Of a stretch of DNA of 64,000 bases, positions 5,701 to 52,600 are shown piece after piece. The stretch comes from Chiloscyllium plagiosum (Eukaryota): contig NC_057749.1 of assembly GCF_004010195.1 (NCBI RefSeq), positions 16,496,524 through 16,560,523 on the forward strand, given 5' to 3'. The position numbers and the translations under genes are program-made. The notes under the pieces are model-generated. The model was not told where the DNA came from, did not search any database, and saw only the letters and a program-made list of their open reading frames with translations. Every line of letters begins with the position of its first letter. Positions within the stretch are counted from its first letter, which is position 1.

Positions 5701-7761
5701 GTAATTTTGCAATTGGGGATAAGGTAACAGTAACAGGTAAACCTTTAAAAGCAAGGTTTAATTGACCTTATCAAATCGAAAGGAAATTGAGTGAGGTGGA
5801 CTACTTGGTAAGGACTCCAGACAAGAAGAAATCTCACAGAGTGTGTCATGTGAATATGCTCAAAAGGTATTTTGATTGGGAAGGAAAGCAAGAGGAGAAG
5901 GTGTTAATGATTACAGCACAGAAGGAAGAACCAAGCTCAGAGGATTCTGAATTGGACATTCCTCAAATCAAATTGGACAATGTGGAAGTTGTCAAAAATT
6001 GGGATAACTTATTGAGTTACCTTCCACAAGAAAATCAAAATGACATGAAAGAATTATTACTATCACATGGGGAGATATGCGGAAATAAACTGGGAAGTAT
6101 GAACCTAATTGTGCATGACGTAGGTATAGGAGATGCTGTTCCAATTAAACAACCTCCTTATAGGCATAACCCTGTAAAGTTGGCACAGGTTCAGAAGGAG
6201 ATAGAGTGCATGCTCCAAGATGGCATAATTGAAGTGAGTTAAAGTGACAGGAGCTCACCTATAGACATAGTGCCAAAGCCAGATGGTACCCAACAGTTAT
6301 ATGTGGACTATCGCAAAGTCAACGCTGTTACAAAGATTTAAGCATATCCAATTCCATGGTTGGAGGACTGTGTTGAAAAAGTGGAATAAGCAACTTACAT
6401 TTCTAAGTTGGACTTGTGCAGAGGCTACTGGCAAGTATCTCTGTCAGAGAGCAAAGGCAATTTCAGCTTTCGTAAAGCCAAATGGACTATGTCAGTTCAA
6501 AGTCATGCCATTTGGTATGAAAAACATTCCAGCCACATTTCAGAGACTGACTAATAAGGTCATTTCTGGATTACCCAACTGTGAGGTACATATTGATGAC
6601 CTGGTGATTTTTAGTCACACATGGAAGGAACATTTACAGCATTTATCGGACTCTTCGATCAACTTCGGAAGGCAGGCTTGGTGATAAACCTAGCTACAAA
6701 TGAATTTGCCAAAGCCCAAGTCACCTTCCTGGGCCATGTTATTGGACACGGAAGAATGCCCTCATGGGATGCAAAAATGAAAGTAATTGGGGAATTCCCC
6801 GCACCGTCTACAAAAAAAAGCAGTATTACGGTTCCTGGGGTTGAGTGGATTTTACTGAAAGTTTGACTTTAGCAGTGTGGCTGCTCCACTCACCGAATTG
6901 TTAAAAAAGGGCAAAAAATTTCAGTGGACAGTGGACTGTCAAAAGACAGTCTAAAAACTATGTTAACCACTTCCCCAGTATTAACCACACCAGATTACAC
7001 AAAGCCTTTCAAAGTGGCTATCGATATGGGTGTCAGTGCTGTGCTCCTGCAGGAGGATGATGAGAGAATAGGAAGACACCTCAGGCATTTTTCCAGGAAG
7101 TTGACATTCATCAACAGAAATATTCAATGGTGGGGAAAGAGACTTTAAGCTTGGTGTTGGCATTACAGCATTTCAGTGTTTATATAATCAGCAATGCATC
7201 TGAAAAAATGAGGAAACTAGTTCGAGGGTTGGGACTGAGACAGGGTGGGGGGAGGGGAAATGAGGAAACTCCCCCCACCCTGTCTCAGTCCCAACCCTCG
7301 AACTCAGCACCACCTTCCTAACCTGCAATCTTCTTCCTGACCTCTCCGCCCCCACCCCCACTCCGACCTATCACCCTCACCTTATCACCCTCACCTTAAC
7401 CTCCTTCCAACAGTCGCATTTCCAACGCCCCACCCCCAAGTCCCTCCTCCCTACCTTTTATCTTAGCCTGCTTGGCACACCCTCCTCATTCCTGAAGAAG
7501 GGCTCATGCCCGAAACATCGATTCTCCTGTTCCTTGGATGCTGCCTGACTTGCTGCGCTTTTCCAGCAACACATTTTCAGCAATGCATCTGAGACAATCG
7601 TAAACACTGATCATAACCCATTGACATTTGTGGAAGAATTTAAGGATGAAAATGCCAGACTGTTTAGATGGAGCTTGTTGTTGCAGCCGTTCACTTTGAT
7701 AATTGTGCAGGTGACAGGTCGCGGAAACGTGATTGCTGATGCGTTATCGAGACTTGAATGA
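2749..7761 (+). pseudogene. Decayed gag-pol: SCAN-like capsid (~3230-3710), Zn knuckle (~3890), protease (~4155), integrase (~4850-5500), RT (~6140-6850), RNase H (~7000-7761)
   Basis: CFNCNKVGH; LRDTGSSQ; HELPLGG..FYWPGL..C..CQ; IDCIGPLP; SDQGSNF; VDYRKVN; KLDLCRGYWQ; MPFGMKN; HIDDLVIFS; TDHNPL; NVIADALSR. Confidence 0.9.
7204..7580 (+). mobile_element. Penelope-like pLTR fragment with 5' inversion, inserted in RNase H
   Basis: 16-bp TSD tcagcaatgcatctga (7188-7203 / 7577-7592); hairpin at ~7219-7305; hammerhead core at 7488-7524. Confidence 0.8.
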
Positions 7762-14756: not shown

Positions 14757-14992
14757 TCCGAAAGAACTGCAGATGCTGGAAATCTGAAACAAAAACAGAA
14801 ATTGTTGGAAAAGCTCAGCAGGTCTGACAACATATATGGAGAGAAATCAAAAGTTAATGTTTCAGGTCCAGTGATCCTTCTTCAGAACCAGTTCTATTCT
14901 TCAGTTCTACCGTTATAAAACGTTAACTCTGATTTCTCTCCATAAATGCTGCCAGACTTGCTGAGATTTTCCAGCAACTTCTGCTTTTGTTA
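14757..14992. mobile_element. Penelope-like pLTR repeat (family B), inverted pair
   Basis: Minus-strand core gtt CTGAAGA..GAAA ca TT aac at 14853-14888; inverted arms. Confidence 0.65.
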
Positions 14993-16000
14993 CACCATTA
15001 ATTCCTGTCCAAAGCCTCACCTCTTCAGTTTTTGCTTGTACCTGCACGTTGCTGCTATCCCTTACTTGGCCAGACGCTCCCATTGACCAAAGTCATACAG
15101 ACAAAGAGAAGGAGAGGAGTAAAGAGACACAAAGAGAGAGAGGGATGAAAATAGAATTCTGAGAAAGGTGGGGATGGGGTGTAAAAAAAGGGGAAAGATC
15201 AGGAAGGTGGAGGAACACCTGAAGGAGATTGAGGAAGAGAGAAAAAACATTAAAAAGATAATTTTTTCCCTTCCAACCTAGTAAAATAGCCTTTCAATAA
15301 TCACAGTTTCAGTTCACATGAAAAAAATGGATGTTGGGAGAGAAGGAGAAGGCTAATGTCCAGAGAATGTACTCAAGTAAATAGTATAACTTGGGGAAAA
15401 TGGGGGTGAAAGGGAATCATGTGTTTTACTATTGATGCAGAGTCTGTAGAGCTTTCTATTACATTCCAGACCAATGATAATTTTAGTTTACATCAGAATT
15501 TTCCAAAAATGGGGGTTGGGAACCCAAGTGAGGTTTCAAATTGAAACATTGGTGTCCTGAACTCTGAGGTAGCAATGGGTGCTATGGGGGGCTCTGACCG
15601 AGTTATAACTTGTGTGTTTTACTAATCTGGCCCCCTTTTTAAATCAGCCTTTGCCCTCATTGCCTCCTGACCCCACTGCCTCAGTTCTTACTGAGGAGAT
15701 CACAACAGTTCTCAAGCCTTGATTGTCTGGCCACAGTCATAACAGGTTTGAAAAGCAGTGGTATATCACTTGTTGATCTCTCACGTTATTCCTTATAGTC
15801 TGTATTTGTTGAGGTGAGGGACCAATACATCATTAGACAAGGGCATGTAGATATAATTCACTTTAAAGTCTTTTGATAAATCTTTATTTTTAATATTTAT
15901 GTTAATATAAATTATTGTTTCAACTGTAAATTCTTACTTTTCTAATAGAAACTACTTGTGTAAATATTCTAGATATAGACTCCACTCCTTCCCCTCCTTC

Positions 16001-19474: not shown

Positions 19475-20320
19475 GTCATAGAGTCATAGAGATGTACAGC
19501 ATGGAAACAGACCCTTTGGTCCAACCCATCCATGCCGACCAGATATCCCAACCCAATCTAATCCCACCTGCCAGCACCCGGCCCATATCCCTCCAAACCC
19601 TTCCTATTCATATACCCATCCAAATGCCTCTTAAATGTTGCNNNNNNNNNNNNNNNNNNNNNNNNNNNNNNNNNNNNNNNNNNNNNNNNNNNNNNNNNNN
19701 NNNNNNNNNNNNNNNNNNNNNNNNNNNNNNNNNNNNNNNNNNNNNNNNNNNNNNNNNNNNNNNNNNNNNNNNNNNNNNNNNNNNNNNNNNNNNNNNNNNN
19801 NNNNNNNNNNNNNNNNNNNNNNNNNNNNNNNNNNNNNNNNNNNNNNNNNNNNNNNNNNNNNNNNNNNNNNNNNNNNNNNNNNNNNNNNNNNNNNNNNNNN
19901 NNNNNNNNNNNNNNNNNNNNNNNNNNNNNNNNNNNNNNNNNNNNNNNNNNNNNNNNNNNNNNNNNNNNNNNNNNNNNNNNNNNNNNNNNNNNNNNNNNNN
20001 NNNNNNNNNNNNNNNNNNNNNNNNNNNNNNNNNNNNNNNNNNNNNNNNNNNNNNNNNNNNNNNNNNNNNNNNNNNNNNNNNNNNNNNNNNNNNNNNNNNN
20101 NNNNNNNNNNNNNNNNNNNNNNNNNNNNNNNNNNNNNNNNNNNNNNNNNNNNNCCCAGCACCGATCCTTGTGGCACTCCACTGGTCATAGGCCTCCAGTC
20201 TGGAAAACAATCCTCCACCACCACCCTCTGTCTTCTACCTTTGAGCCAGTTCTGTATCCAAATGGCTAGTTCTCCCTGTATTCCATGAGATCTAACCTTG
20301 CTAATCAGTCTCCCATGGGT
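19475..20320 (-). mobile_element. CR1-clade LINE spanning the assembly gap
   Basis: WIQNWLKGRRQRVVV...SGVPQGSVL; tail repeat gtcataga. Confidence 0.85.
19642..20153. other. Assembly gap (512 N)
   Basis: Run of N. Confidence 0.99.
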
Positions 20321-20954
20321 CTTTAAAGTTGTGGAAGGGTTCAATAAAGCAAAGGTACAGATATTTCCACTTGTTTTCCTTTTTGTTGTACTTGGTCACA
20401 TCACTAATAGGTCAAAAAATTTAAGAGGAATGTTTTTTAACAGAGGAAGTGGTGAGAATGTGAGACTTTCTGTCACATGGAATGGTTAAAGCAGTTACTG
20501 TGGAAGGAAATGAAATACATACAGAAAGGAATAGAGAGATAAGGGACTGTTGAGGGAGGTAGTAATGTGTGGACAGAATCTTTTGTTGTGTATTAACACT
20601 GGCACGAATTGTTTGGACTGAATAGTTCACTTACATATGTAGATTCTATGTAACACACACAAGTACTCTTTAGAAACCCACATCCTTAATTTTCCTGAGA
20701 GAATTTCAGCTCATTATTAAATGTCTGCCTAATCCATTGCAATGACCCAATTTATAAGTTAAAATGGTTCACAGTATAGCTGCTGCTTTACAACAGAGAA
20801 ATTAGATTTATGTTATGTATTTCTTTTAACTGCAGGTTCAAACAAAATATCACAGATGACTACCTCCTTTATATTGTTAGTTATTTTGAGCAAATGTTGG
20901 ATCATTTGCTAGGATTTGAGAAGTTGTATGGGCTACTGTTCCTACTTCTTATGT

Positions 20955-21143
20955 TAAACAAATCACACATCAGGTTATAGTCCAACAGGTTTATTTGGAA
21001 ACACTAGCTTTCAAAGGTTTCTTGAGGAAGAAGCAGTGCTTCGAAAGCTAGTGTTTCCAAATAAAACTGTTGGACTATAACCTGACGTTGTGTGATTTTT
21101 AACTTTGTCCATCCAGTTCAACACGGTCACCTCCAAGTCATGG
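20955..21143. mobile_element. Palindromic Penelope-like repeat (family C)
   Basis: 13-bp TSD ctacttcttatgt (20942-20954 / 21144-21156); long inverted arms; core ...GAGGA agaagc agt gcttc GAAA gc TA gtg. Confidence 0.7.
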
Positions 21144-28691: not shown

Positions 28692-31600
28692 CTGCAGCAG
28701 AAAGAGAAGAGGCATGTAAGGTTGCAATCAACTTTTCCTTCAAGTCAAGCATCCAGTCAGAAATTATATTGAGTGACGTGAACCAAACAAAATGTACTGG
28801 TAAGGTTTTATAAGTTGCAAGACTCCCTCAAAAATTCTCTCTCTATTGTTCATGACAGGACCAGCACCCACCCATCAATTTCATATCAAGCTGAGACACA
28901 TGCACTGGAGTAGATGTTGTTGTCAGCTGAAATCCCATGGATGCCCATTGTTAAGTAGCAGAACTGACATGTGGGGAGCAGGAAGCTCTGGTTAATTATT
29001 TTTCTCAACTCCAGTATCCTTATTAGGCTGAGGGGACACGGGAGAATGGAGGAGAGAATGAGACACATTGGATTGCTACAGAGAGCTGTCAGATTTAATG
29101 GTCTGAATGGCCTCCATGCATAAAACTGAATCTTAACCAACCCATGTCATAAAAACAAATATTACCTAAAGTAGAGTGAAAAGCTCAGTATCAGGTGTTT
29201 CATACCTTGCCCTGGGTGGTACTGCAATTGAAACCCAGGTTCTTGGCCTCCAGCCCACAGTCAAATCCTTTCCGATGTAGAATTAGCGCCAACTCTAACC
29301 CGGGAGCAGAAATCACCTGCAACATAAATGACAGAGAGAATCATACAGCAACTGACTCACATTTCAAATCACAGCAGCCTGAGATCTGTTGCAAATTTGA
29401 AGTCAATTTTGTTCCACTGCTGCAGAGCTTAACAGCACTTGACAAAATCACAAACCCAGATAGCCAGGGTCTGGTGTTGAACGTAACTGCATCTTAGGAG
29501 GACAAAAGCTCCAAATTTCCAATCTGCAGAACCAACACTGCTCAGTGCTATTGGGAAAAAAAGAGAAATTAGTTAAGTTGCAGCACTGACGGCCGTTGCC
29601 AATCCACCATAACCTCTCACCTCAGACTGTAAGGTCCTCATATTAAGCATGTGGAAGTCACAGGGTATAGGAGCTGCAAGTGGACGCCAGCTTCTGATGG
29701 GTGGAACAGTCTGTGGCCTTGGAGTAACTGGCATCGCCAGAACCTCATGGTTCAGGTGCATCAAGGTCATGTGACTTAGCAGGGAGGGAAAGCTCACAGG
29801 CTGACTATCCTGAACCTGTAGAAATAGAAATAAGCCAGCCTCAGTTTGCTGTTGATCTGAGATTACCTGGTTATGCAAGAGGCTGACATAAAAGTGAGCC
29901 TGAGAGACTTAACATTTCACAAGTGCTTCAACAAATTCCCCCCTTAGTCCATCAGTGCAGGTCTCTCGGGAGACAAATGGTTCCATGGGTTAAATCATTC
30001 ACTTGGTCATCTGAGCATGAGTCCAGGCCTAAGTTTTGAGCTTCAAGATGGATTTGGGACAGTTTTACTCAAGCTAAAGTATCAGGGCAGACAACTTATA
30101 AAATAAAAATTAATCATGCTCCCATCAATTTTCAGATTTACAAGTTGCTGACACTAAGATGTCAGAGTTCTGATTTTAAGCTTTACCTCTTAATGAGGAA
30201 ACACCAAGAATCTACATGTATGAAATTCCAAAGCTTTAAACAGAACAAACCAGACAGTAAGAGATAATGATAGGGGATGGAATAGCTGAAATTTTGATGT
30301 CTAGATGGACAGGTCTGATGGGTCACAACATGGCTCACTGACATAGTTAACACTCAAATAAATGCCAAAAGGCTTTTAAACATGGCCACCACCAATCTCT
30401 CCTTCATTCAATATCCACATACAATACATAGGATAGAGTTCAAGAGGAGAAGCCACAACTGATGTTTTACCTTCCCTCAGCTCAAAAGGACACAGAACTA
30501 ATTATAGTAAGCGAAGCAATAACAGACTAAGATCATGTTACCTATTGTGGTATTGAGAGAAACAAATACATCTGCCTTTTGAATAAATCAGGTACCAGAA
30601 CAGAAAACCAGCCAGTTCCAATCAAAGAGAATGGGTACTTTATTAGGCTGGAATTTGGCTCAAAGTAGGGCATACTCAATAGAAACTAAATGACGTAGCA
30701 TGGACTCTGACTAGCATAGTCTATTTGAAAGAACTGTTCAGTATATAAGGCAGATTTATTGTTGTCAGGCATTGTGCCATAACACAGACCAGTTCAGAGC
30801 CTTACTTTGAGCACTGATGGACCTGCTCACTCATGATGCTCTGGGCCAGAGAACAAGCAGTAACGTAGTACTATTGCAGACCTACCCCTAAATAACCCCT
30901 CTGAAAAAACCCTTTGTTCTTCTGTAGCTTCCTTGCCTGGATCTCATCTAACGTGCTCCATCAACTCCAAAAACATGGGCAGCAGGGAATCAGAAGTGGA
31001 TAAGAAGCAGTGTGCACTGAGACAATATATAAACAGCTTGAGTTACAGAATGTACTGTGAGGTGCTTAATTTTTGTTAGCGTTTTCACCTCATTAATGGC
31101 TCATTATTCTGGGTCAGCAGTGCCCACTGATCAATAAGATGTGAACACTCTCAGTCTAGATCACAGATGAGCCAACTAATGTTATCAGGCGAGGACTACA
31201 GATGCTGGAGATCAGACTGGTGCTAGAAAAGCACAGCAGGTCAGACAGCATCCGAGGAGCAGGAAAATCGACGTTTCGGGCAAAAGTCCTTCATCCGGAA
31301 TGATAGCTCTCATTCCTGATGAAGGGCTCTTGCCCGAAACGTCGATTTTCCTGCTCCTTGGATGCTACCTGACCTGCTGTGCTTTTCCAGCACCACTCTA
31401 ATCTAGACTCTCATGTTCTTATCAGTCTCTCTCGCTCTCTCTCACATACTTTTCAGGAAGTTCCTGAACAGCAATCAGAGACTAGAAGACTGCAACCCTG
31501 GTTGATTTAAGCACATAAGCCCAGATGAGCTCCTGGTTAACAAATGAAACAAGACAGTTTATAGAGCGCTCACACAGATAGACAGCGACAACTACGAGCT

Positions 31601-34600
31601 ACATTTCATACTGCAGCTATGACTCACAGCACAGAGGTGGTCAAAGTTAATTTACAGATTACACTTTGACCCGGCCTCCTCTCTAAAAGGTTACCTCATG
31701 GGTGCTGGTCCTGCAAAGGATGGAAGCTGAGAGTGCCTGCAAGATGGAGTGCAGCCTTGACAGAAAGCCAATGTGCTGAAGAGGAGCAATGGGAATGGAG
31801 AAAACGATGAACATGAAGGAATGGGCAAGTATAACCATCTATTTATAACCCACAGACATGGAATAATTACACATGTACACTAGCATAAAAATACTACAGG
31901 TACCACACATTGCAAGCCCACACACATTTCTCAGCTTACAATCTGCATGGACACTATACCACAGATACGGCACTACACCAACACTAAGCAGGAGTGTACA
32001 CTGCAGCACACAGACACACACTTGCCTCACAAATACACCCCACCCCACCAGATGCTCATCAGCCACTCACCCTACAGATGAGATCATTTATATGCTCACA
32101 CTTGAATACAAACAGCACTGGTATCACATATGCACATACATGCAACTCATCACAAGACTCTCATGTTCCCACTCCCTGCAAACTTCCTTGCCAGTCCTGC
32201 TGACCACAAACCAGGCTACCCACTCCACAGGTTAAGAAAGTAACAAGCACAGGGTCGAAGCATCCGCAGACACACTGGGTACCATCCCAATCTCTACAGG
32301 TGCATACACACATAGCGCATCATAAATATACACACACCACTGCATGTCTCCCCACCAGCCAATACATCGACACTGTGCACTGCACAACTCAGCCTCTCGT
32401 GCGCATGCACACATACCCACATCAACATAAAAACGACCTTCCTTATCCACCCTACCCCTCATTCACCAATGTCCACAGTTAGTCCTGTTGATTCTTGCTG
32501 TGGAAGTTTAATGGGTATCTCAGCCCTCTGGAATCTTGCAAGCATCAGTGCTCAGTAAGGGCAGGCTATCTGGTTGTAAGCAGGCATACAGTTAAACCCA
32601 ATTTTGTCCTCACCTGAAATGCAAACTTTCCCATGGGAGTCACTGGAAGGGAAGTGCTGGCTATATCATTCCTGAAGAAGGGCCTGTGCCCGAAACGTCG
32701 AATCTCCTGTTCCCTGGATGCTGCCTGACCTGCTGTGCTGTTCCAGCAATAAAGTTTCAACTATATTATTTCACCCCTTTACAATCTGGACCAATGATGC
32801 CCTAAGCTGAGATCTGCTAATTTATCCCAGAACTTGGTTTCGACCCAAGATCTCTGGGCTGCAGTGGTGAAACAGCAAATCCAATGGTGCCTTCAACTGG
32901 ACTGCCACTGCAAATAAAACCACTCCTCTAGTATGTAAATCATAGACTAAGATCACATACAAGCAGGGGTTAAAAACAATTTAGTACTTTGTTTGATGCT
33001 GATCTCTTCTCCAGCAAGATACGGAATCTGTTGCAGGTCACTTTGTTGTCTTTTAGTCCTTGTCCCAAGCCCCGGTTGTCATCCTGCATGAGACGACGAT
33101 CCAGAATGACCTCCAATTCACCTGGGAATGACAGGACAAGAGATCCATTCAGCATTAAGGAGGAGTGAATGAAGGCGGTGTTTCTTTCTCAACTATAGTT
33201 TCTAGCCTCAGGGCTTGTCATCCATGTTCTCCATAGGACTCCTTACTTTTAACCCCAACAGCAGTGTCACTCTCACTAAAATCCCCCCACCCTGATGGTT
33301 ATTATCCACAAACTGATTCCTTGGGTCTCGACGAGTACAGGAGATGGAGAATTTGGGGGTTTCCACAGGTCCAATCCTGCTGTTACTCAATATCCAACCA
33401 GACACACTCTCACAACCAAGTCACTGGCAAGCAGGAAGCCTGTAACATTCTACAGAGAATTCTTTTTGTTACATCTTTGCTTTGCTCAGCCATGGCTGAA
33501 ATCAGATGGAAACTGCAGCCTGTGGTCCAGAGGAGGTGGTTGCTGGCAAGAAGTGCTGAGTCAGTAGAAACTAAAACTGATCACCTCTCCCCAAAATGTT
33601 CCAGTCTGTTTCACCTTGAGCCCCTCCCAAGACAGAAATAACTTTCCAAAATAAAACATGTCAGTTAAAGTCTAAATTATAAATTTGTAGAATCAAGGTC
33701 TAATTAGAAATAACCCCAAACCCCATGATTAGAAGAAATGAGGAGAATAGAATGCCCTGTTAACTTCCTCTGACATTCACTGGGCTGCTATTTCCATTCA
33801 CAGAGTAATGCTGGATTTGCGAGGATTGCATTTATCATGTTGCTGTGGGGCTGGAGAACAACAATTACTCTAAGAGGCACTGCCAGCAAATCAATTAGGA
33901 TACAACCAGTTTGCTCACCATTGTGAATACTCGACACACCCAGAGACTGTGCAGCATGTAGTGTCAGGCGGAATCGATCATCCTGAATGTAGGCCATGGT
34001 TGACATCGGGTAGAAGTTGGCCTGAAGGGGCAACTTCTGAAAATATTTTCTCGCTTGAATCTACAGGAAGCAATAAAAAAGCTTAAGAACAAGTTGAGAT
34101 CGATCCACAGTGCTGCAGAAAGATGACCTTGTTTTAAGTATAAGCACATTTTCCAAGACCAAACACAAGCAAATGAAATGGGAACAGATGGCCATTTGGC
34201 CCCCGAACCTGATCTGCCATTTAGTAAGATCTGGCTGATCTGTTTGTTTTGAATTCCACATTTCCATCAGCACAGATAACCTCAGCTTCCCTGATTAACA
34301 AGAATTTACTCACTTCTGCCTTCAGAGTCAAGAGAAATTAGGAACTTAAGGCTTATGCCTGAAACGTCGATTTCCCTGTTCTTCGGATGCTGCCTAACCT
34401 GCTGTGCTTTTCCAGCACCAGACTCTCAACTCTGATCTCCAGTGCCTGCAGTCTTCACTTTCTCCCACCCCTGCCTTCACGATAATTAATGACCCATCCT
34501 CCTTCACCTGGACGCAGAGAGTTTCAAATTGGCTCAAAGATTCACCTCAGCTGTCCTAAAAGGACTAGCTCCAGTTTTAAAACAGTGCCATCCCCCACCC

Positions 34601-37600
34601 TGATACTGGACTCAAACTAGAGGAAACACCCTTTCCATTTTCACTTTGTCAAGATCATTCAGAATCATATACACTTCGACCAAGTCACCCTTAAACACTT
34701 CTAAGCTCAAGTTGAAACAAACTCAATCTGTCCAACCTTTCCTCATAAGATAACACACTTACTCCAGATATTAACCTAGCAAGTTTCCCTCCAACCACCT
34801 CCATTTACATCTTCCCATGAATAAGGATGCCAAAACTTCAGCCAGGTGTGATTTCACTGATGCATGGTATAAATCCAAAAATGCTTAGCTTCAGTTATGT
34901 TTAATCCCTCTCATTGTGAAGGGCAGCATTCTATTAACATTCTTGATTACCATTTGTATTAAATGTATTAACATTTTGTCACTCATGCACTAGAACATGA
35001 AGATCTTTCTGATCCTCAGGCCAACTTCTACCCGATGTCAACCATGGCCTACATTCAGGATGATCGATTCCGCCTGACACTACATGCTGCACAGTCTCTG
35101 GGTGCTCACTTAAAATTTTCTACAAATGTGAACTTCATATTTTCCCCCATTATAGAACATCTGCCAGAATGGTGCCCAATGGCTCAACATATCTAGGTGT
35201 GCCTGCAAACTATTCTTCATTGTAGTTTATTTGCCTACCTATCTTGACGTTGTACATGCACTTAGTTCCGTGCTTTTGTTTCACTTATACCATATATTAT
35301 ATCTTAATACTCCCTAAAAACTGATGCATTAAAGAAATGCTCCAAATAGCATTACCAATCCCGTTCCACCCCCCCGCTTCAAAACACAAATTTTAACTTC
35401 AGAAATCAGAAGACCTTTCAATGCAAAACACCACCAGGGCCCTGTCAGGTAACATGGTGGATGTGTGGATATTATAGTGGGTGAAGATACTGGGTGAGGT
35501 GCAAATGGGAGATAGAGGTTGGGTGTCATTGATACACCGTGGCCACAAAATGTAGATTTAGGTCAGTGTATTCAGGACATTGTGAAGAGATGTTTTAATC
35601 ACATTGTTTGTTTATGTTCAGTAGTGATTATCACTCCCAATCAGCAAGAATTGCATGGTTTACAACCCTCTCCAAGACTTGATATTTCTGATTTACCAAT
35701 ATGATCTGGTCCAGGTGTACAATGGATAACATTTACTGTGCATTATTAGTGAAAAAGTTGTGTATCTGGAAGACAAAAACTCTAATTTTTGATTTTTAGT
35801 TCTGACTTCAGCTCCCAACTTCCCCCACCCCATTCCCCAAACCCTCATCTCTGCCATTATTTTGACCCGAATTTATCCTGCTCCACCCCACCATTTCCAA
35901 TCCTTTCTAATATGCAGCCAGAGATGACTCAACAGATTAACAGCATGATCAAAGACTGATGTGCACAGGACAAAGTCAATTGTTATACCAATGTTTAAAT
36001 ATTCTGTCATACATTTTAAACAATTGTGTGCTTTCCTTTTTCATGTCCACGTGAACTAATTATGCTGCATTTATATACTCCCTAAAATTACTGGGATGTA
36101 ATTACTGGGCAACAAGTTGAAAACCACCAATTTCCATTGTAAATGTGAACAAAAGAAATTGGCAATGGAATAATCGAAGACCAAAACTGAACAAATTTAA
36201 TAAAAGGCTTGTTATGGCCAAGAGACTTTACCAATAATTTCCAACACTACTTCTCCCATGTACCACACCTAAGCAATGGATATACCCATGCTGTGGAGGC
36301 AGTAAGGCTCAGTTTAGCGAGATTGAGATTGCCTCTCATTCCAAGAGTCAATTATTTTCTGAAGGAGACAGTCAGGGTTGTCTTCCCTGTCCAAAGAATC
36401 TGGAACATGGAGGCACAGCTTCAGGGTAAGGTGCCAAACATTTAGGGCTGAGGTGAAATTCATTCACTCTGAAATGAGTGACTTGGAACTCTCCACCCCA
36501 ACAGTTGCTGATATAACAAAATTTTTCAATGTTCTCAGTCTCAGCCCTGATCTCTCAGAATCAAAAAAGGAATGAGGGGCAGGCGGGAAAGTGGAATCAA
36601 ATCAGTTATTAATCAGATGTCATCAATGGTAGAGCAGGCTCAAGTGGCCACATGATCTACCCTTGCTGCTATTTCTTACACCCTTATCAATCTTGACATA
36701 AGAGATCCACTACAAAATAATGACTACACTTGGATATATGTAACAAGTTACCACATATCAATGCCTCAATGATTTGAGTGAACACGTAAGCCCCAAATAG
36801 CAGCAAGACGAGCAAATGGTTTGTGTGCTTTTAGTATTATTGGTTAATAATGTCCACGAAAGCAGAAGACTGTCCAATAATCTAACAGGCAGGCTGATCC
36901 ACAATTTAATGCATCCTCGAAGAGGTCATTGCACAGGAGACTTTAAATATTACCCTCTATCCCTTCCTACACTGAACTTCCAAGGAGGGGCGAGAATGTG
37001 TAACCATTTGTATAGTAATTTTACACCAAGTTACCTGAAACCCATTCAAATCTGTGTAGAATGTGTCTCCACTTTCAATATTGGTGGACAGCCTCATTGC
37101 CAGCTCTCGGTTTATCTGGTCATGAATGTCAACAACAACGGAAACATCCAACGAAAGCCCCTCAACTCCTGCCAGCACAAGAACACACGAGTAGATTATC
37201 ACTGCACCACATTTAACACTTTGCGAACAATTCACTGGAATCACTTATTTTTGTTATATTCTGTTCTAATGCCAGTGGATATCAGTTAACTTGGCACTGA
37301 CAGTGCAGGACTGTTGGACTGGATGACTCAGTACCAGAATGGATCCACATTTATTCACCAAGTGAGAGCAATGAAAGTTTTAACCAGCAAAGCCCTTTTC
37401 CAGAGCAGACCACTGGAATCACATTTCCACCCAAATTCACTTCCTACCGTCAGTATTTCATTAGATATATACAGCACTAGAAGAGGATCACCATAGTGAA
37501 TTTAACTGTCTGCCATGATAACACACAGCAATTGTTACTTTTGTACATTAGCTTTCATATGGGACCTTTAACATTAATTCTTTACAATTCCCACCTCCCA

Positions 37601-40600
37601 TTGACAACAGTGGCTTTAAAACTGTCCCCTTCTGCACTGTGCAGCTATTCAGAACCTGTTGCAGACAGGGGTCCAAGTAAATGTCAAAATGTAACAGGTC
37701 AACCTAAGTAGTGAAAAGTCTGCTGTGTTGAGGTCATGGTGCTTTGCTAAACCAATCCATGAAACAAAATTGCAAGTATTTGACAATTAAAAAATTACCA
37801 CAAAAGATGCCTGACTGAAAACTGATGTGTTTAACTTTGTTCTTCAGTGAAAGGAACTTGCCACCCTAACTGAAGTGTAGCGCATAAGATTTTAGGGATC
37901 TTGTAAAACACTTACTGACATGATCGAACAAGCTAAGTCATCAAATCAACACAAGATAGACATCAAGTACTGGATTACACCTCAACATAACACATCAAAA
38001 TAATACATAAACAGGTACACATTATATTGCACACTAGGCAGCAGAGTGGCAAACAGATTTCAATCTGGAGATTCAATCCTAATTCCCTTCCTAAGTGCAT
38101 TGTGGGTCAACCCACAGCAGGTGGACAATAGCAGTTCAAGAAATCATCTCACCACCACCTTCAAAGGCAACTAGGGACAGACAATAAATGCTGGCCAGCC
38201 AATGACATCCACATCCCACAAATAAATAAAACAAAATGGTCAAAGGTATTGGAGAATAAATGGGAGGTTTGAGTGGGGAAGAAGAGAGAAGCCTTGAAGT
38301 GTACAACCACAGGTCTCTGAAAATGGTAGAACAGGTAGATAAGGTGGTAAAGGCAGCACATGGGATACTTTCCTTCATTGGGCAAGGTAATGAAGATAAC
38401 AGCAGGGATGTAATGGGGTATTATTTTGATTCTGGTTAGGTCATGGCTGGAGTTTTGTGGACAGTTCTGATTGGTCAGAAAGGTCAGAATTGTTTGAGAG
38501 CAGAAAGAGTACAGAGGCGATTTACAAGAATGTTGCCAGGGTTTGAAAATTGCAGCTAAGATTGGAAAAGCTACCACTGTTTTCCTTACAACAGATGCTC
38601 AAGGATTGACTTGATTGAGATGCATAAAATAATGGGAGACTTCGATAGAATGGAGGGGGAAAAACCTGTTTCCCCCTAATGGGGGAGTAAATTACCAGGG
38701 GCCACAGAAAACTTATGATTGACAGAAAAATCTGATGGAACATGAGGTTAAGTTTTTTCAATCAGAAGGTGGTGAGTGTCTGCATTTCACTGACCAGCAC
38801 AGTTGAAACGGAAACCCTCAACTCATTTAAAAGGAATTTGAATCTGCATCTGAGAGCTTCTCGCCGGAAAGGCGAATGACCAGATGCTAGAAAATGTGAT
38901 TAGAACAGGCAGTAAGGTTTCTTCAGCTGCCATGGACATAATGGGTTGTATGGCCGCCTTCTGTACTGTAACTATTCTATGTTGCCACCATGGTTAAATT
39001 ATAGAGTGGGGGATGGGAGAAAATTAACAATAAAACATGAAAAGCCTAGATATAAATGACAGTGCAAAGTAAACTGTAATGTCACACATTATTACCTCAA
39101 GACTGAGCATTAACATACACATGATATTGATTACTGTGCAAGTTTTTTTAAATCACTTGTTTATTGCAAAGGTTATGGGTCAGAATGCTTCACTTGCTGA
39201 ATTAACCTCACCCCTGCCTCCGAAATCCTCAGACCCACATACTCCCTCCTTTATCCTCTTAAGGAAGATTCATCACTCCAGCTCCCCCTTCAACTCATTC
39301 TCTCTCGTCAGGCACACTACAGATTTTTAAACACCACAGTTGACGTTACCTAAACGGTTTCTTGATTTTATCTTTAATTTTTATATGACGTGACAGTGCA
39401 GTTCAACAGCAACCCTTTCACCAGTCAACAAACATTCAAAGTGTACTAAAGGATATTAGTACATAACTTAAGCAGGAGGTGCCGTTCTTCAGTTGAAATG
39501 TTAAAGCCCAATTCATGAGTGAGATCAAAAGATGCCAGTGCATTGTTAAAGAGGAAATAGTTCTCCCTGTGTTCTGGCCAACATTCCTCCATCAGCCAAT
39601 CCCACATAAAACACACTAACCAGCTATTTATATTGCTTGCTGCTAATGGAACATTGAGCAAATCGATATTCATGTTTCCCTACAAAATAAAGTGACCGTA
39701 ATATGAGAGTAGAATAATGCACGATTTCCTAACTTAGTGCAATATTACATCTGCAACTTTTAAATTAAAGTACATACCAGAATACAAGGACATGGCAGAG
39801 ATTGGAGAGGTGTTTAGTGTACGGTGCGTTTCATTTCACCATGCTGCTGTCTTCAGAACACAGGAAGGAATGTCTTTGGAAATCAATCAATGGCTATTTT
39901 ATCTAGAGCAAGAACTATCATTCATGTCTGCTTAGACAGTTCCATCTAAAGGCTATGGGGGGCACCCAATACCTGACAGCCATGATCACGCTGCTTTTTA
40001 AATGTTTACAAACAAAAAGACTTGCATTCCTGTAGCACCTCATGCCATCAAGAAAATCCTAAGGCACCTTAGCGCTTCTTTAAACATGGCATCTTTAAAA
40101 TAGTCACCGCTGTACTGTAGCTGAGGAGAAAGTGAGGTCTGCAGATGCTGGAGATCAGAGATGGAAATGTGTTGCTGGAAAAGCGCAGTAGGTCAGGCAG
40201 CATCTAGGGAACAGGAGAATCGACGCTTCGGGCATCAGCCCTTCCTCAGGCCATTCTCCTGTTCCCTAGATGCTGCCTGACCTGCTGCGCTTTTCCAGCA
40301 ACACATTTCCATCGCTGTACTGTAGCTGCCAAACTGTGCACAGCATGCTCTTACAAGCAGTGACATGATAACGGCGAGGTAACTTGTTTGAGCTATGGGG
40401 AGGTGAGTGATAAATACTGTTCAGGACATCAGCAAAAACCCCCGTATTTTCTTCAACATTGACATCTGACGAAGGGGCTGACCAGATGTCTGTTTAATGC
40501 TTCATCCAAAGGATGGCATCTCTAAAAGTGCAGCATGCCCTCAATACTGCACTGTAAGCATGTCAGGTTTCCATGGCAAGGTCCTTTGAATGGGGCTCGC

Positions 40601-46600: not shown

Positions 46601-49600
46601 CCTCTGAGAAAAAGAACAGGAAATGACATCACTACCCCAAAGAAAGGCAAACATATAAAATAGAAAGCAGGAATCATCAGCAGTGCTTTGTCCAGAGGCT
46701 CACTGAAGATGTTACCTAGTATAGTGACGAAATGTCGAAAACGAACCTTCCAGCTCAGTGAGCAAATCAATATATACACACAGTCTCAGAAAACCTAGCA
46801 TTTATACAAAATTCTATCTCAGCTCATAAATGTCATGTGATCCCAAGGGTTACAATCACAGAGGAGAAAGTGAGGACTGCAGATGCTAGAGATCAGAGCC
46901 GAAAATGTGTTGCTGGAAAAGCGCAGCAGGTCAGGCAGCATCCAAGGAGCAGGAGAATCAACGTTTCGGGCATAAGCCCTTCTTCAGGAATCCCCATGCC
47001 TGACCTGCTGCGCTTTTCCAGCAACACATTTTCAGTTACAATTACAGATAAAGGAAAGGCCATTTAAGACTGAGGAGGAGAGATTTCTTCAGCCAGATAG
47101 CGGTGAGCCTGTGGAATTCTCAGCCACAGAGTGGTTGAGGCCACTGAATGCTCTCAAGGAGAGAGATAGAGTTCTTCGGGCTAAAGGGGTCAAAGAGGAC
47201 AAGGATGGAGGGCCAGGAACAGAATACCGATTTAGATAACTAGCCACGATCTCACAGAATGGCAGAGCAGGCTCAAAGGACTGAATGCTCCTATTCCTGC
47301 TCCTACATCTCTCCAGGCTTTCCATTTTAGCATGAGAAGCAGGAACATTAGCTTTGTTTACTTGGCGGCATTAAGCTGCTAAAACTGAAGTTCAGTGTTC
47401 TTCATAAATCACAATAACTTTGGTATTGTTTGGCACAGAAACATTCATATGAAAATTAAAAGTAAAAGATTTGTTTTAAATTTGGAGGTCCTCAACCTTC
47501 AGCATTTGCAAACCTGTCTTGCTCACTCCATACTAGACAAGCAGTGACCTAGTTTATATGGATTTCTTGGTTAAGTTAAAGTTATACTAAAAGATAATTA
47601 TTTGGCAAACATAAAATGGAAGTTTATTTCATTTCACAGAGGTGCACAGTGACACGTACCGGATTCCATAGTCAACAACCACCACTTCTTTTGAGGTGCC
47701 AGTAATGGCATCATGGTGCTGGAACAAGCCTATGTTCCGGCGAGCTTCTGTTAGTGAGCTATAATCAGAAACTGGGTATTTACTGTCTGCACCAAAGCGG
47801 CGAGCGTGATTTAAGGCCAAGCTGTAGAGGATCTCAGCTGCTCTGGAATAAAATTAAAGGCTTTTTATTTAAGGCTCACGAATTATTTAATAAAAATGCC
47901 AGTGCACATTTATTGACACAGAATTTTATAGAAGGAAGACATTCAGCTCAATGTAATTCAGCCAGTTCAGAGCTTAATCCCAATCCCTTATACTCGCCCC
48001 ATTTAGCTTAAACATCACCCTTTGTAATACATTTATCCATTTTCTTATTTGAAAGTTACTCTGCTTCCACCATTCTAAAAGTCCTCTGCTTTTTTTTAAA
48101 AAAGCATCTCCTTTTGTTCTATAGAAAGGAGCCCAAGTTTCCATACCTTCTTCTGAACTAAAATCTCCCACCGATAAAGCTTCCCTGCATCCTTTCAATG
48201 AGCTGATGTAGTTCCTAAAGTTCAGAGCCCAAATTCCTATTGTTTGTTTAGCAAAACCTATCTTATTCTCCGTATTTCACTAACACTATCTATCACTCCA
48301 GGTCCACCCATCTCTGTCCTCTTAGATTCTTGTCTCTCCCTCCAAGACTCAATTATTAATTAGTAATATCTTTTAACACTCTTTTTACTCTTTTCTACCA
48401 CATTAGAAAAAAGAACTTTAAATACAACTGCTTACAAACATAGCCCCTTACCTGAGGTGTGATTCCAGGACTCTGTCTAGATTCTTATAAAAGGGTCGGG
48501 AGGTAAAATATCCACTCCAATAATGGTCCTCACGGTCAGCATAGGTGAAGAAGTCTCCACTGAGGATAGGGTAGGATGGAGGCTTGCTACCTGGGCTAAC
48601 ACCGTATTTTTTATAGACAGCATCAAAGTACTCAGATAGCGTTCCAAACTGCACCTGGTAAATAAATGGACATTCAGAACAAAGCAAAGACAGACACCTA
48701 CATATTGGAGACACAGTTTCTCTAAAAATTCCCAACCCCCAAGACATTTCCATCTATCAACTTAGGTGCATTTTATCACAGATACACTTTCAACACCTTT
48801 CCCAGCAAACTTCATTTGCATGAGAATCTGACATTCAAATTTGGAAGACATCGCAGCTAAGCCAAATTTGCTCAAGCTTCCAGGTATGCCCAGAAACCTC
48901 AGAACCTCTCCTTGCCTAAGCTGCTACAATCAACTGTTTCCTCTCGGTTGCCCTGCCTGGCGAGCTAGATAGCTCAGTAGATGGCTCATCAAAGCAGAGA
49001 TCTGCCTGCTCTGTACAACTGGTAAACTGCTGGAATCCAGACAGCTAGTCAAAGTCTGTGAGAAGATTTGTAGCTTGGGTGCTCGTGGTTGTGGTTCTGT
49101 TCACCGAGCTGGGAATTTGTGTTGCAGACGTTTCGTCCCCTGTCTAGGTGACATCCTCAGTGCTTGGGAGCCTCCTGTGAAGCGCTTCTGTGATCTTTCC
49201 TCCAGCATTTGTAGTGGTTTGAATCTGCCGCTTCCGGTTGTCAGTTCCAGTGGTCGGTATATTGGGTCCAGGTCGATGTGCTTATTGATTGAATCTATGG
49301 ATGAGTGCCATACCTCTAGGAATTCCCACTTATTATCTCCCACTTATTAGGGCAAATTTGCTTTTGGATCAATACCGGAAAAAGTCCAAGTTGTTCTCTA
49401 TTCGGCTTGTCCTATTATAGTAGTGTTGTCCAGTCGAATTCATGTTGCTTGTCATCTGCGTGTGGCTACTAAGGATATCTGGTCGTGTCGTTTCGTGGCT
49501 AGTTGGTGTTCAGCTATCCTTAGTAGCCACACACGCAGATGACAAGCAACATGAATTCGACTGGGACAACACTACTATTATAGGACAAGCCAAACAGAGA

Positions 49601-52600
49601 ACAGCCAGGGAATTCCTAGAGGCATGGCACTCATCCACAGATTCAATCAATAAACACATCAACCTGGACCCAATATACCGAGCACTGCAACGGACAGCTG
49701 GAACTGACAACCGGAAGCGACAGATTCAAACCACTACAAATGCCGGAGGAAAGATCACAGAAGCGCTTCACAGGAGGCTCCCAAGCACTGGAGGATGTCA
49801 CCTAGACAGGGGACGAAACGTCTGCAACACAAATTCCTAGCTCAGCGAACAGATCCAGACAGCTATATTTCTCCCTTGACAGAGACACTTACTTGCACAT
49901 GAAGCTCAGGGTGAGAGTTCATGTAGTCAAAAAGTTTTGCATAATTCTGGAATTGCTGGTCCCACTCCAGAGCATTGTCATAACGAAAGTCATCTCCAAC
50001 TGGAATCAGGACCACTTTGCTCTTGAACAACTTGGACTTTTTCCGGTATTGATCCAAAAGCAAATTTGCCCTAATAAGTGGGAGATAAGAATCTGCACTG
50101 AGAATGTAACAAACACATGTGGAAGGAAGACAAGAACAAGCGTTAGCATGCTTTCTTATCAGTAATAAGAAAATGATACTGTCAATTCACTGAACATTTC
50201 CTCTTAGGAAAGTAAAATTACTTCCAGAAAGCAGCACCATGGGATATGAAAATGAGGAGTAAGCAACCTCGTTAAACAAATCAAAATGAGATGTTATAAA
50301 TACATCTGCACAGACTTCTTTCAACCTTTCCCATTATAAATTGCCCAGTTCATTGTTACTACATATATAAATGTCACATGGTAAATATTTCCCACTAGTG
50401 GAGGTGCTATAGTGTGACCAGCATCAACAGCAAGTCATCAAAGTTGGACAAATTTAGACAGATTATTTCCAAGGTGACAGTGTATGTGGAAATTTATAAT
50501 GGAAGCAGATATAGATAAAATCCAGGACATTAAAACAGCAACTAAATAATACTTGCACAACTTGTTCTAATTATGTATGCCCTCTAACAAATTTATTTTC
50601 ACTGAAATGCAGAGAAGTTGCAATACAGAATTTGCCATTTAACTCAACCAGCCATGTCAACCTTTACCCTTCTCGTGGGAACATTGCTATAATCATATTT
50701 CAATACATTCTTACCACGATGTATTTTCTTTCATCCACCTAACCAATACCATCTTTAAGACTGATTTTTGCCTGAATCACCAACTGAATTTCACAGGTTT
50801 GTAACTCAAGAAACTTCAAGCGCATCTTCCTATTTCCAGTGCTCCCTTATCCCAGAACCCTCAATCACTTATAATAATCTGCTATCTATCCGACCCCACT
50901 TTCTTTTAAAAGCACTTCAATCATGTTGCCCCATAATCTGCTATGTTCAGGCCATTTTTTTTTTAATTCCATTTTTTTTTATATACTATGTTTAAACCTT
51001 CAACTGCCTATATATTAAAAAAAAGGAGTCGCGACAGCATGCCTGGAGATGTTTGAACTGAACAACTAGTGCAGTCATGGCGAGATTGCTTAACACCCAG
51101 TACATCAGCCAACCAAAAAGAGAAAATACAAGACCACAATGAGTAAATGTTACCTGGGGCAGAAAGATTCCAGATCTGATGTTTCTACGTGGAATTAGCT
51201 GATTTGAACTAGATAGCAGAATCCAGCTCATTAGTAATCTGTTACCTTTTGTTTTTACCTGTCTCTGGGCCCCATCTCCACATAATCTATTCACTGGCAC
51301 AACCCCCCTATCATCAGTATAAAAATGATCTTTTTCAGATATTCAGTTCTGACGAAGGGTCACTTAAAACATCTTCTCTGTAGATGCTACCATACCTGCT
51401 GAATTTTTTCATCACTTTTTGTAGCGGAATTCTACAACTGGTATAAAAAAAACTTGGTGGATTTAAATCAAGAAGAATAATCAATAACCAAGTTGCAATT
51501 CTACTTAAGGTTTTTAAATCAATGGTGGCAAATAGGAAAACTGCACAAGAAAGACACCCTAAGCCAACTATTCTAGCACAACGATCAAGAATTCAGGCAG
51601 TCCATCACAACATCCAACTGGCTCTTCAATTATTGCAGGGAATTTCACTTCCAATATCATCCTTTCCTGCCTCCAACATACCTGTTTCACAAGTTGATCG
51701 CATGAAGAACTTCCGACAACAGTAGGGTATGAACCAACAGCATGGAAATTCAACAGAAGATGTGGAGATTTTCAAACAAAATAAATTTTGAACAAAAAAG
51801 CAGTGCTCTCGTGATGACTGCACAAAACTGACCAAACAACCATTCAGTCCAGGATCTGGATTAGTGGTGCTGGAAGAGCACAGCAATTCAGGCAGCATCC
51901 GAGGACAGGCAAAATCGACGTTTCGGGCAAAAGCCCTTCATCAGGAATAAAGGCAGAGAGCCTGAAGCATGGAGAGATAAGCTAGAGGAGGGGGGGGGTG
52001 GGGAGAGAGTAGCATAGAGTACAATAGGTCAGTGGTTCTTGTAGAGAGAGGAGGAAAACTTCTTCAAGGCAGGCATCCTTGCAAGAGGATTCGCAGTAGG
52101 GTTAAAATCAACGAGGTAAAAACAATGACTGCAGATGCTGGAAACCAGATTCTGGATCAGTGGTGCTGGAAGAGCACAGCAATTCAGGCAGCATCCGAGG
52201 ACAGGCAAAATCGACGTTTCGGGCAAAAGCCCTCCATCAGGAATAAAGGCAGAGAGCCTGAAACATGGAGAGATAAGCTAGAGGAGGGGGGGGGGGGGGA
52301 GAGAGTAGCATAGATTTTACAGTTCCTGCGGTGGCAGGGGAAAGTGCCAGGATGGGAGGGTGGGTCGTAGGGGGGCGTGGACCTGTGCCAGGATGGGAGG
52401 GTGGGTCGTAGGGGGGCGTGGACCTGAACCATCAAACTCCAACCAATTATAGCCTCGTGAAAATGGATAGACTGGTGTTCATAGCTACAAGTCAAGTAAT
52501 GGCGAAAATACACATACCAGTTAATGCTGACTAGTTGGGATGAAGATTAAGCATTTCCCTCAAAAGATAAAATTAAAGCTTTATCCTATGAGTAACAAGA

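What the first reader, a model, noticed from the sequence alone, without database searches (positions are those of the whole stretch)
33937..35104. Perfect 89-nt antisense copy of MAN2A2 exon 18 in the upstream intron
Seen: 35016-35104 is the exact reverse complement of coding sequence 33937-34025, ~1 kb away, embedded in old LINE-like sequence. Inference: this is a recent locally templated inverted insertion (template switch or end-joining repair). In the pre-mRNA it could form an 89-bp duplex with the exon, i.e. a ready-made editing-complementary sequence for ADAR or an exon-skipping element. Skipping the 142-nt exon would frameshift.
Basis: partly seen in the sequence, partly recalled or inferred. 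Interest (0 to 1): 0.72.

Follow-up and report, generated by a model that had tools for sequence, protein, structure and literature searches.

The report
Backwards exon copy in shark intron
In some individuals of this shark, a mannosidase gene has 84 bases of one of its own exons copied backwards into the neighbouring intron; it looks like an ordinary DNA-repair scar, though it would let the gene's RNA fold back onto that exon.

Summary
Window 35016-35104 is the exact reverse complement of 33937-34025 (89 nt), which lies inside a 142-nt exon of alpha-mannosidase 2x (MAN2A2, minus strand).

It is not an assembly error. A contig of run X5 carries the left junction without a mismatch. Contigs of two other runs of the same organism (X3, X13) carry an empty allele, with 12 nt (AAACTCTACAGC) where the window has 84 nt. 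So this is a segregating replacement-insertion: 12 nt of an old repeat were replaced by 84 templated nt, with microhomology TCA and TG at the junctions.

That is the signature of microhomology-mediated templated insertion (template switching or snap-back end joining), a known kind of mutation.

A second event of the same type lies in the same gene. At 49328-49391, 4 nt of a palindromic repeat were replaced by 64 nt copied backwards from the intron/exon boundary at 50025-50091. About 251 kb of control sequence held no such pair.

The ADAR or exon-skipping idea is untested. The 89-bp duplex is predicted (-192 kcal/mol), but spliced contigs in X5, which holds the insertion allele, include the exon. 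The scan has noted similar backwards exon copies in other genomes.

The parts
33919..34060 (-).
   Evidence: Open frame and peptide; tblastn with a shark ortholog; spliced RNA contigs with a joint at 33117->33915 (cut +4, CT..AC), which places the downstream intron at 33122-33918
33937..34025 (-). Template arm: exon nt 36-124, the source of the copy
35016..35104 (+). The 89-nt stretch identical to the exon sense sequence but lying on the plus strand, so antisense within the pre-mRNA of the upstream intron
35019..35102 (+). The 84 nt actually inserted; the empty allele has AAACTCTACAGC here instead
   Evidence: tables 5, 5c and 8: X3 record 21 and X13 record 7 join 35018 to 35103
35016..35018 (.). 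Left-junction microhomology TCA, shared by the empty allele, the insertion allele and the exon
35103..35104 (.). Right-junction microhomology TG, shared by the empty allele, the insertion allele and the exon
34608..35196 (.). Old interspersed repeat copy that hosts the insertion; paralogs match both flanks
   Evidence: alignment A1
49328..49391 (+). Second event: a 64-nt block in one arm of a palindromic repeat. 59 nt are copied backwards from the intron/exon boundary, plus 5 nt (ACTTA) that look like a re-priming stutter
49392..49396 (.). Second event: microhomology TGTTC at the junction that faces the template
   Evidence: Alignment A2
50025..50091 (-). Template of the second event: the last 19 nt of the intron (with the acceptor AG) plus the first 48 nt of the exon at 49869-50072
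49092..49857 (.). Nested palindrome of an abundant repeat family, host of the second event; its right arm lacks the block

Best explanation
This is a recent germline mutation that still segregates in the species. A break or stalled fork arose in an old repeat within the MAN2A2 intron. It was repaired by DNA synthesis primed on a few bases of microhomology, using a nearby stretch of the same chromosome as template. The template was the exon about 1 kb away, read on the opposite strand. 84 nt were copied and 12 original nt were lost, leaving TCA and TG microhomology at the two junctions. The simplest geometry is snap-back: the resected 3' tail on the template's side of the break folds back, pairs through TCA, is extended, and then joins the other end through TG. 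A replication template switch (MMBIR or TSM type) would leave the same scar. A second, independent event of the same type sits 15 kb away in the same gene. As a by-product, the pre-mRNA of the insertion allele can form an 89-bp perfect duplex between the intron and the exon. The most likely outcome is that this is neutral or mildly harmful rather than a working regulator. Shown: the two alleles, the junctions, the template and the second event. Inferred: the repair pathway and the lack of function.
For: Perfect 89-nt inverted identity that occurs only twice in the genome. Empty allele: X3 record 21 (3621 nt) and X13 record 7 (384 nt) join 35018 to 35103, and table 5c lists 12 other letters between the two sides for X3; X13's letters are not listed, but 49 further letters with a side of 37 fit the same 12. 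Insertion allele: X5 record 27 (276 nt, 0 differences) runs 34770-35045 and ends exactly where a 31-word graph must break. X5 record 28 reaches 8 nt into the block from the right. The 12 letters match the repeat-family consensus from A1 at 8 of 12 positions by my own reading, so the empty allele is ancestral. The host repeat is only 66-85% like its paralogs while the block is 100% identical to its source, so the block is much younger than the repeat. Second event: a 64-nt block replaces 4 nt, with TGTTC microhomology on the template-facing side and CCC plus an 8-nt stutter on the other. I count at least 21 paralogous arms with the two flanks exactly 4 nt apart, and none of the 120 listed matches other than the window itself covers the block. 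Its template crosses the intron/exon boundary, so it was not spliced mRNA. The published signature of microhomology-mediated templated insertion is an inverted copy of a nearby template flanked by microhomology (PMC8421209, passages read). Reiterated priming, and reverse-complement inserts from snap-back, are described for polymerase theta (PMC5068794, passages read).
Against: The template is 990 nt away and the insert is 84 nt. Polymerase-theta inserts in C. elegans are mostly under 25 bp, and about 85% are primed within 10 bp of the break. MMBSearch looks only within 100 bp. X5 record 27 has 27-30 letters beyond the junction, just under the tool's 31-letter rule for 'bridging', and record 28 has only 8. 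The sequence cannot tell break repair from replication switching, or a DNA template from an RNA template. Two events in one 34-kb gene, both templated on exon-bearing sequence, against 0 in about 251 kb of control, is more clustering than a uniform random process predicts. By my arithmetic P is about 0.015 for location and about 0.013 for the exon templates (from the 11.3% exon fraction). Both figures are post hoc.
Confidence: 0.85

Rival explanations
1. Assembly artefact: the block was stitched in by a chimeric read or a polishing error and does not exist in the animal.
For: A short perfect inverted duplicate is something mis-assembly can produce. X3, from the same study as the best holder, shows only the empty form in its contigs.
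Against: X5, from another study and holding spliced RNA-derived contigs, has a 276-nt contig with 0 differences that runs from the unique flank 27-30 nt into the block. Every 31-nt word across the junction must therefore occur in its reads. A second event of the same anatomy is supported by the repeat's own other arm and by at least 21 paralogs.
Confidence: 0.02
2. RNA-templated repair: the nascent MAN2A2 pre-mRNA, tethered at the gene, served as template for a repair polymerase or reverse transcriptase at an intronic break. This would explain why both templates carry exon sequence.
For: Both of the 2 local inverted pairs in the window have exon-bearing templates, although exons make up 11.3% of the gene. 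Both copies put the sense sequence on the same (plus) strand, which fits priming of the minus strand on sense RNA from the right-hand end in both cases. Nascent RNA is by nature local.
Against: The second template includes 19 nt of intron, so mature mRNA is excluded. There is no poly(A) and no target-site duplication. An RNA template predicts either orientation, while snap-back predicts inversion, and both events are inverted. In both events the longer microhomology lies at the junction facing the template, as snap-back predicts. n = 2.
Confidence: 0.08
3. Working cis-antisense element: the copy is kept because its duplex with the exon recruits ADAR (recoding) or tunes exon inclusion, and skipping causes a frameshift.
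For: The pre-mRNA fold closes the full 89-bp helix, with duplex energy -191.6 kcal/mol. The exon arm has 20 adenosines, 15 of them recoding if edited, and 142 mod 3 = 1. X5 contigs show that the intron stretch carrying the copy is present in an RNA-holding run. Inverted intronic repeats are reported to promote exon skipping (PMC13019027, PMC2533698; search listings and abstract starts only).
Against: The element is polymorphic, and the empty allele occurs in 2 of the 3 organism-A runs laid, so it is not a conserved feature. Spliced contigs in X5 join this exon to both neighbours (records 22 and 25). Among the 40 of 63 rows of differing letters that were shown, none lies in the exon for X5 or X13, although contigs drop minor variants. 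No Rfam family lies in the gene.
Confidence: 0.05
4. Capture by a mobile element: a transposon picked up the exon fragment while moving, as Pack-MULE or Helitron elements do.
For: Both copies lie inside repeats.
Against: The empty allele contains the same repeat copy at the same place. The host repeat of event 1 is 66-85% like its paralogs while the block is 100% identical to its source. In event 2, none of the listed paralogs carries the block.
Confidence: 0.01

Closest known systems
Microhomology-mediated templated insertions (MMB-TI, MMBIR/FoSTeS-type template switching)
   Same: An inverted copy of a nearby template, microhomology at both junctions, replacement of a few original bases, and occurrence as a germline polymorphism (PMC8421209, passages read).
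   Different: The template is 990 nt (event 1) and 628 nt (event 2) away, beyond the 100-bp search radius of that study. Here the template is a coding exon of the same gene.
Short template-switch mutations (TSM) that create perfect hairpins, including new miRNA stems
   Same: One mutational step makes a perfect reverse-complement repeat that can fold as RNA (PMC8794818, passages read; PMC10710096 and PMC5453318, search listing and abstract starts).
   Different: The events described there are short and close: the largest pattern mentioned in PMC8794818 is 59 bp, with source and target a few bp apart in their rRNA set. Here the stem is 89 bp with a 990-nt loop, and one arm is coding.
Polymerase-theta end joining with templated inserts / SD-MMEJ snap-back synthesis
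   Same: Deletion plus templated insert (delins), priming on minimal homology, reiterated priming (the stutter in event 2), and reverse-complement inserts from snap-back (PMC5068794, passages read; PMC5728401 and PMC2943611, search listing only).
   Different: Typical inserts are under 25 bp and primed within 10 bp of the break, and snap-back is a minor class in that data set. Dependence on the enzyme cannot be tested here.
Intronic editing-complementary sequences (ECS) of ADAR targets
   Same: An intronic stretch complementary to an exon of the same pre-mRNA. This description is recalled textbook knowledge, not taken from any call.
   Different: Known ECS are conserved and imperfect, and they direct site-selective editing. 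This one is perfect, polymorphic, 89 bp long, and no editing has been shown.
Inverted intronic Alu pairs that loop out exons or sequester splicing signals
   Same: Long intramolecular pre-mRNA duplexes that can change exon inclusion (PMC13019027, PMC2533698, PMC2077896; search listing and abstract starts only).
   Different: In those cases both arms are intronic repeats flanking an exon. Here one arm is 63% of the exon itself (event 1), or the 3' splice site plus the start of the exon (event 2).

Membership tests
Microhomology-mediated templated insertion (MMB-TI / template-switch mutation) | The inserted sequence is the reverse complement of a nearby template on the same chromosome | tested here: met
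   89 of 89 nt at 990 nt distance; event 2 has 64 of 64 nt at about 630 nt distance
Microhomology-mediated templated insertion (MMB-TI / template-switch mutation) | Microhomology between template flank and target at both junctions | tested here: met
   TCA and TG, from comparing the empty allele with the window and the exon; TGTTC and CCC in event 2
Microhomology-mediated templated insertion (MMB-TI / template-switch mutation) | A pre-insertion allele exists, so the change is a single mutational step | tested here: met
   X3 record 21 and X13 record 7. For event 2 the evidence is the other arm and at least 21 paralogs, with no read data
Microhomology-mediated templated insertion (MMB-TI / template-switch mutation) | Template within about 100 bp (the operational limit of MMBSearch, not a mechanistic rule) | tested here: not met
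   990 nt and 628 nt between the arms; limit quoted from PMC8421209
Polymerase-theta-mediated end joining scar | Delins whose insert is identical to flanking sequence, with signs of reiterated priming | tested here: met
   12 nt replaced by 84 nt; 4 nt replaced by 64 nt, with an ACTTATTA stutter
Polymerase-theta-mediated end joining scar | Small insert (mostly under 25 bp) primed close to the break (about 85% within 10 bp) | tested here: not met
   84 nt copied from about 1 kb away, against the figures in PMC5068794
Polymerase-theta-mediated end joining scar | Dependence on POLQ | not testable with these tools
   Needs genetics
ADAR editing-complementary sequence | Intronic sequence that base-pairs with the edited exon | tested here: met
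   The MFE fold contains the full helix; duplex energy -191.6 kcal/mol
ADAR editing-complementary sequence | A-to-I changes observed at the paired exon | tested here: inconclusive
   Among the 40 of 63 rows shown, none lies in the exon for X5 or X13, but contigs drop minor variants and no raw RNA reads were laid
ADAR editing-complementary sequence | Conservation of the pairing element | tested here: not met
   The empty allele is present in 2 of the 3 organism-A runs laid
Retro-copied gene fragment (LINE-mediated or spliced-cDNA insertion) | Poly(A) tail, target-site duplication, or exon-exon junctions in the copy | tested here: not met
   No poly(A) or duplication; 12 nt are lost instead. The event 2 copy contains 19 nt of intron

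The most novel reading that the evidence does not exclude
MAN2A2 in this shark may be a hotspot of a transcription-linked repair process that repeatedly writes exon-bearing pre-mRNA or sense-strand sequence backwards into neighbouring introns. That would create ready-made cis-antisense elements: an 89-bp duplex over 63% of one exon, and a 64-bp duplex over the 3' splice site of another. The segregating insertion and empty alleles would then be a natural experiment on how a new ADAR or splicing-control element is born.
Probability: 0.08. Interest if true: 0.7.

Novelty: new member of a known kind. Interest (0 to 1): 0.38.

Why it matters
As a mutation it is ordinary. It is a clean, fully resolved example of a microhomology-mediated templated insertion, with both alleles, both junctions and the template in hand. 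It comes from a cartilaginous fish and is larger and longer-range than the textbook cases.

Three things make it worth a note:
- One step created a perfect 89-bp intron-exon duplex in a housekeeping glycosylation gene, and the allele still segregates. Carriers and non-carriers can therefore be compared directly for hyper-editing, exon skipping or nuclear retention.
- A second event of the same kind lies in the same gene, also templated on exon-bearing sequence, while about 251 kb of control sequence has none. This raises the question of whether templates are chosen at random.
- For annotation, such blocks can mislead gene finders, which may call spurious antisense exon hits, and short-read assemblers, whose contigs break at the shared words.

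Tried and rejected
1. From paralogs of the host repeat I first estimated that about 31 nt had been deleted. I aligned 8 of the 17 loci then held. I left out L001, L002 and L011, which are the window's own locus, and L004-L008, L014 and L016, whose matches did not reach or straddle the site. The empty-allele contigs supersede this estimate: 12 nt were replaced.

2. I considered a second template switch to explain TGCTCAC next to the block, because the same 7-mer lies at the exon's donor site. I rejected it because the empty allele already has TGCTCAC at that position.

3. No RNA holder was listed by the look-up of sequencing runs. The lay itself later showed spliced joints in X13 and X5.

4. 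Organism B (X14): no contig covers the block. The flanking contigs stop at 35005 and 35105, with 23 and 48 further letters that do not fit the window, and no joint is listed. This is a part without cover, so I cannot say whether the relative has or lacks the insertion.

5. Editing and skipping could not be judged. All four runs are contigs, and 23 rows of differing letters were not shown.

6. A larger base-rate control was not possible. A 30-kb request passed. The loci could not be cut, so I used only its table.

7. Rfam gave 0 families in 28000-63500. Pfam gave no hit in the 4 ORFs scanned around the copy, so 'LINE-like' is neither shown nor excluded.

8. A whole-genome protein search with the shark ortholog (run with a stricter first look) listed 40 matches. 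On C40, 22 are on the gene's strand and 1 is opposite, which is the 89-nt copy. All 15 matches at the paralogous locus on C2 are on one strand, and 2 matches lie on a small contig. No further stray exon copy appeared, but the event 2 copy was itself missed, so sensitivity is limited.

9. The search of earlier findings returned no notes for this genome.

10. A 15-nt inverted match (31699-31713 against 28856-28870, E 0.007 for one of 22 queries) was treated as chance.
Full report
**Observation.** The window holds a perfect inverted repeat with arms 33937-34025 and 35016-35104: 89 nt, 100% complementary, 990 nt apart. A 30-nt word from it occurs twice in the window, against none in 100 shuffles. 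A DNA search of the 3.56-Gb assembly finds the block only at these two places.

The lower arm lies in a 142-nt minus-strand exon at 33919-34060, which has an open frame. The closest named relatives of its peptide are shark alpha-mannosidase 2x proteins at 85-89% identity, and the peptide gives a weak, sub-threshold Glyco_hydro_38C match. tblastn with a shark ortholog maps 22 coding exons between 62970 and 28545, all on the minus strand. This exon is the 17th of them, so the copy lies in the upstream intron as transcribed. The labels 'exon 18' and 'LINE-like' are unverified.

**What hosts the copy.** Both flanks of the block belong to one old interspersed repeat. Genome searches with the left and right flanks return many paralogs at 66-87% identity, and several paralogs match both flanks. 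An alignment of 8 of them shows that the family sequence is interrupted in the window exactly at the block.

**Is it real? The read test.** I laid contigs of four coded public runs on 32900-35900.

- X3 (organism A): one 3621-nt contig lies on 34413-35018 and 35103-35900, with 12 letters (AAACTCTACAGC) between the two parts.
- X13 (organism A, another study): a 384-nt contig makes the same joint.
- These two runs therefore hold an empty allele.
- X5 (organism A, a third study): a 276-nt contig with no differences runs 34770-35045, from the unique flank 27-30 nt into the block. It ends exactly at the last 31-nt word that is unique.
- X5 also has a second, thin contig that reaches 8 nt into the block from the right.

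The 27-30 letters fall just short of the tool's 31-letter rule for 'bridging'. Even so, neither the exon context nor the empty allele can supply those words, so reads of X5 must contain the junction. The assembly-chimera reading is thus refuted, and the block is a segregating variant. Contigs show presence only, so I make no claim about which animals are homozygous. By my own reading, the 12 letters agree with the repeat-family consensus at 8 of 12 positions, which marks the empty allele as ancestral.

**Anatomy of the mutation.** The ancestral site reads CCTCA-[12 nt]-TGCTCAC, and the derived site reads CCTCA-[84 nt, 35019-35102]-TGCTCAC. In the exon the same 84 nt are preceded by TCA and followed by TG. 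The junctions therefore carry 3 and 2 nt of microhomology, which accounts for the 89 nt of identity. There is no target-site duplication and no poly(A).

**A second event.** The tblastn map also showed a plus-strand hit at 49349-49417.

- Window 49330-49396 is 99% complementary to 50025-50091; 64 nt of this are exact.
- The template is the last 19 nt of an intron, including its acceptor, plus the first 48 nt of the exon at 49869-50072. It was therefore not spliced mRNA.
- The copy sits in the left arm of a nested palindrome at 49092-49857. The right arm has TGGC where the left arm has the 64-nt block 49328-49391.
- A genome search with the left arm returns an abundant family (2549 candidates, 40 scored, 120 matches). 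I count at least 21 paralogous arms in which the two flanks lie exactly 4 nt apart, and no match other than the window itself covers the block.
- The junctions show TGTTC on the template-facing side and CCC on the far side.
- An 8-nt string, ACTTATTA, repeats a string that lies a few nt further into the copied stretch. I read this as one round of re-priming, which is an inference.

**How common is this?** The same blastn scan (at least 93% identity, at least 35 nt, no more than 5 kb apart) finds 2 inverted pairs in the window, both of them the exon-templated ones. It finds none in 23 ten-kb stretches flanking the window (221,778 non-N bases) or in the 29 kb of the window outside the gene. Under a uniform rate, both events would fall in the 34.4-kb gene with P about 0.015. 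Exons make up 11.3% of the gene, so two exon-bearing templates have a rough probability of 0.013. Both figures are post hoc and rest on two events. A sensitive exon-against-window search found no further copies. A whole-genome protein search showed no opposite-strand exon hit at the paralogous locus on C2: 15 of 15 matches there are on one strand (limited sensitivity).

**Mechanism.** An inverted copy of a nearby template, microhomology at both junctions and loss of a few original bases together form the published signature of microhomology-mediated templated insertion (PMC8421209, passages read). They are also the signature of short template-switch mutations that create perfect hairpins (PMC8794818, passages read). 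Polymerase-theta scars show the same delins logic, reiterated priming, and reverse-complement inserts from snap-back, but they are mostly under 25 bp and primed within 10 bp of the break (PMC5068794, passages read).

In both events here, the longer microhomology lies at the junction facing the template. That fits snap-back of the resected 3' tail on that side. It is equally compatible with a replication switch, and with priming on sense RNA from the other end. I put the generic reading (microhomology-primed copying of a nearby template during break or fork repair) at 0.85, and an RNA template at about 0.08.

**Consequence for the RNA.** Folding the pre-mRNA stretch 35140-33880 closes the whole 89-bp helix, and the duplex alone is -191.6 kcal/mol. 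It covers exon nt 36-124 and encloses the 3' splice site in a 990-nt loop. The exon arm has 20 adenosines, 15 of which would recode if edited, and skipping the exon shifts the frame.

The evidence bearing on function is thin and leans against a strong effect. X13 and X5 hold spliced contigs, with a joint at 33117->33915. In X5, which holds the insertion allele, contigs join this exon to both neighbouring exons. No differing letter is listed in the exon for X5 or X13 among the 40 of 63 rows shown. Contigs cannot show minor edited or skipped forms. The element is polymorphic, not conserved, and no Rfam family lies in the gene.

**Comparison and novelty.** This is a new member of a known kind of mutation, larger and longer-range than the cases those studies were designed to catch. 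Earlier notes of this scan describe similar backwards exon copies in introns of other genomes, judged to be ordinary (not tested here). The unexplained residue is the clustering of two exon-templated events in one gene.

Noticed in passing
window 49328-49396 and 50025-50091: A second backwards copy in the same gene. 64 nt replace 4 nt in one arm of a palindromic repeat, templated on the intron/exon boundary of another MAN2A2 exon. In the pre-mRNA it is complementary to that exon's 3' splice site.
   Followed up: yes
window 49092-49857: A nested palindrome of about 766 nt (arms 90-100% complementary), belonging to an abundant family (2549 first-look candidates, paralogs up to 95% identical). 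Similar hairpin-shaped repeat copies occur at 7219-7304, 14785-14994, 20953-21103, 31209-31404, 40156-40317, 46901-47033 and 63745-63917.
   Followed up: partly
window 34314-34515 (also 32681-32762, 31191-31404, 40125-40317): A very high-copy short repeat containing GAAACGTCGA. Summed word depth reaches millions in three runs and tens of thousands in X13, including the related organism B. It is probably a SINE-like element and was not classified.
   Followed up: no
window 51849-52018 and 52145-52314: A direct duplicate of 170 nt at 96.5% identity, 127 nt apart, in another MAN2A2 intron. It is related at 78-86% to 46846-46991. Possibly two adjacent repeat copies or a local duplication.
   Followed up: no
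window 19642-20153: A run of 512 N (an assembly gap or a withheld stretch). Several control stretches on the same contig also contain N runs.
   Followed up: no
window 32986-33121: RNA contigs place the end of the downstream exon at about 33121 (intron 33122-33918). The tblastn hit ran on to 33170, so the protein alignment over-extended into the intron.
   Followed up: partly
window 33975: The organism-B run X14 reads T for C here, inside the exon and inside the template arm. By my reading this changes an arginine codon to glutamine on the sense strand. Its contigs break at this site, as at a heterozygous position.
   Followed up: no
G000:C2:60506069-60700021: The paralogous alpha-mannosidase II locus (presumably MAN2A1) spans about 194 kb on another chromosome. 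15 exon matches are listed, all on one strand.
   Followed up: no
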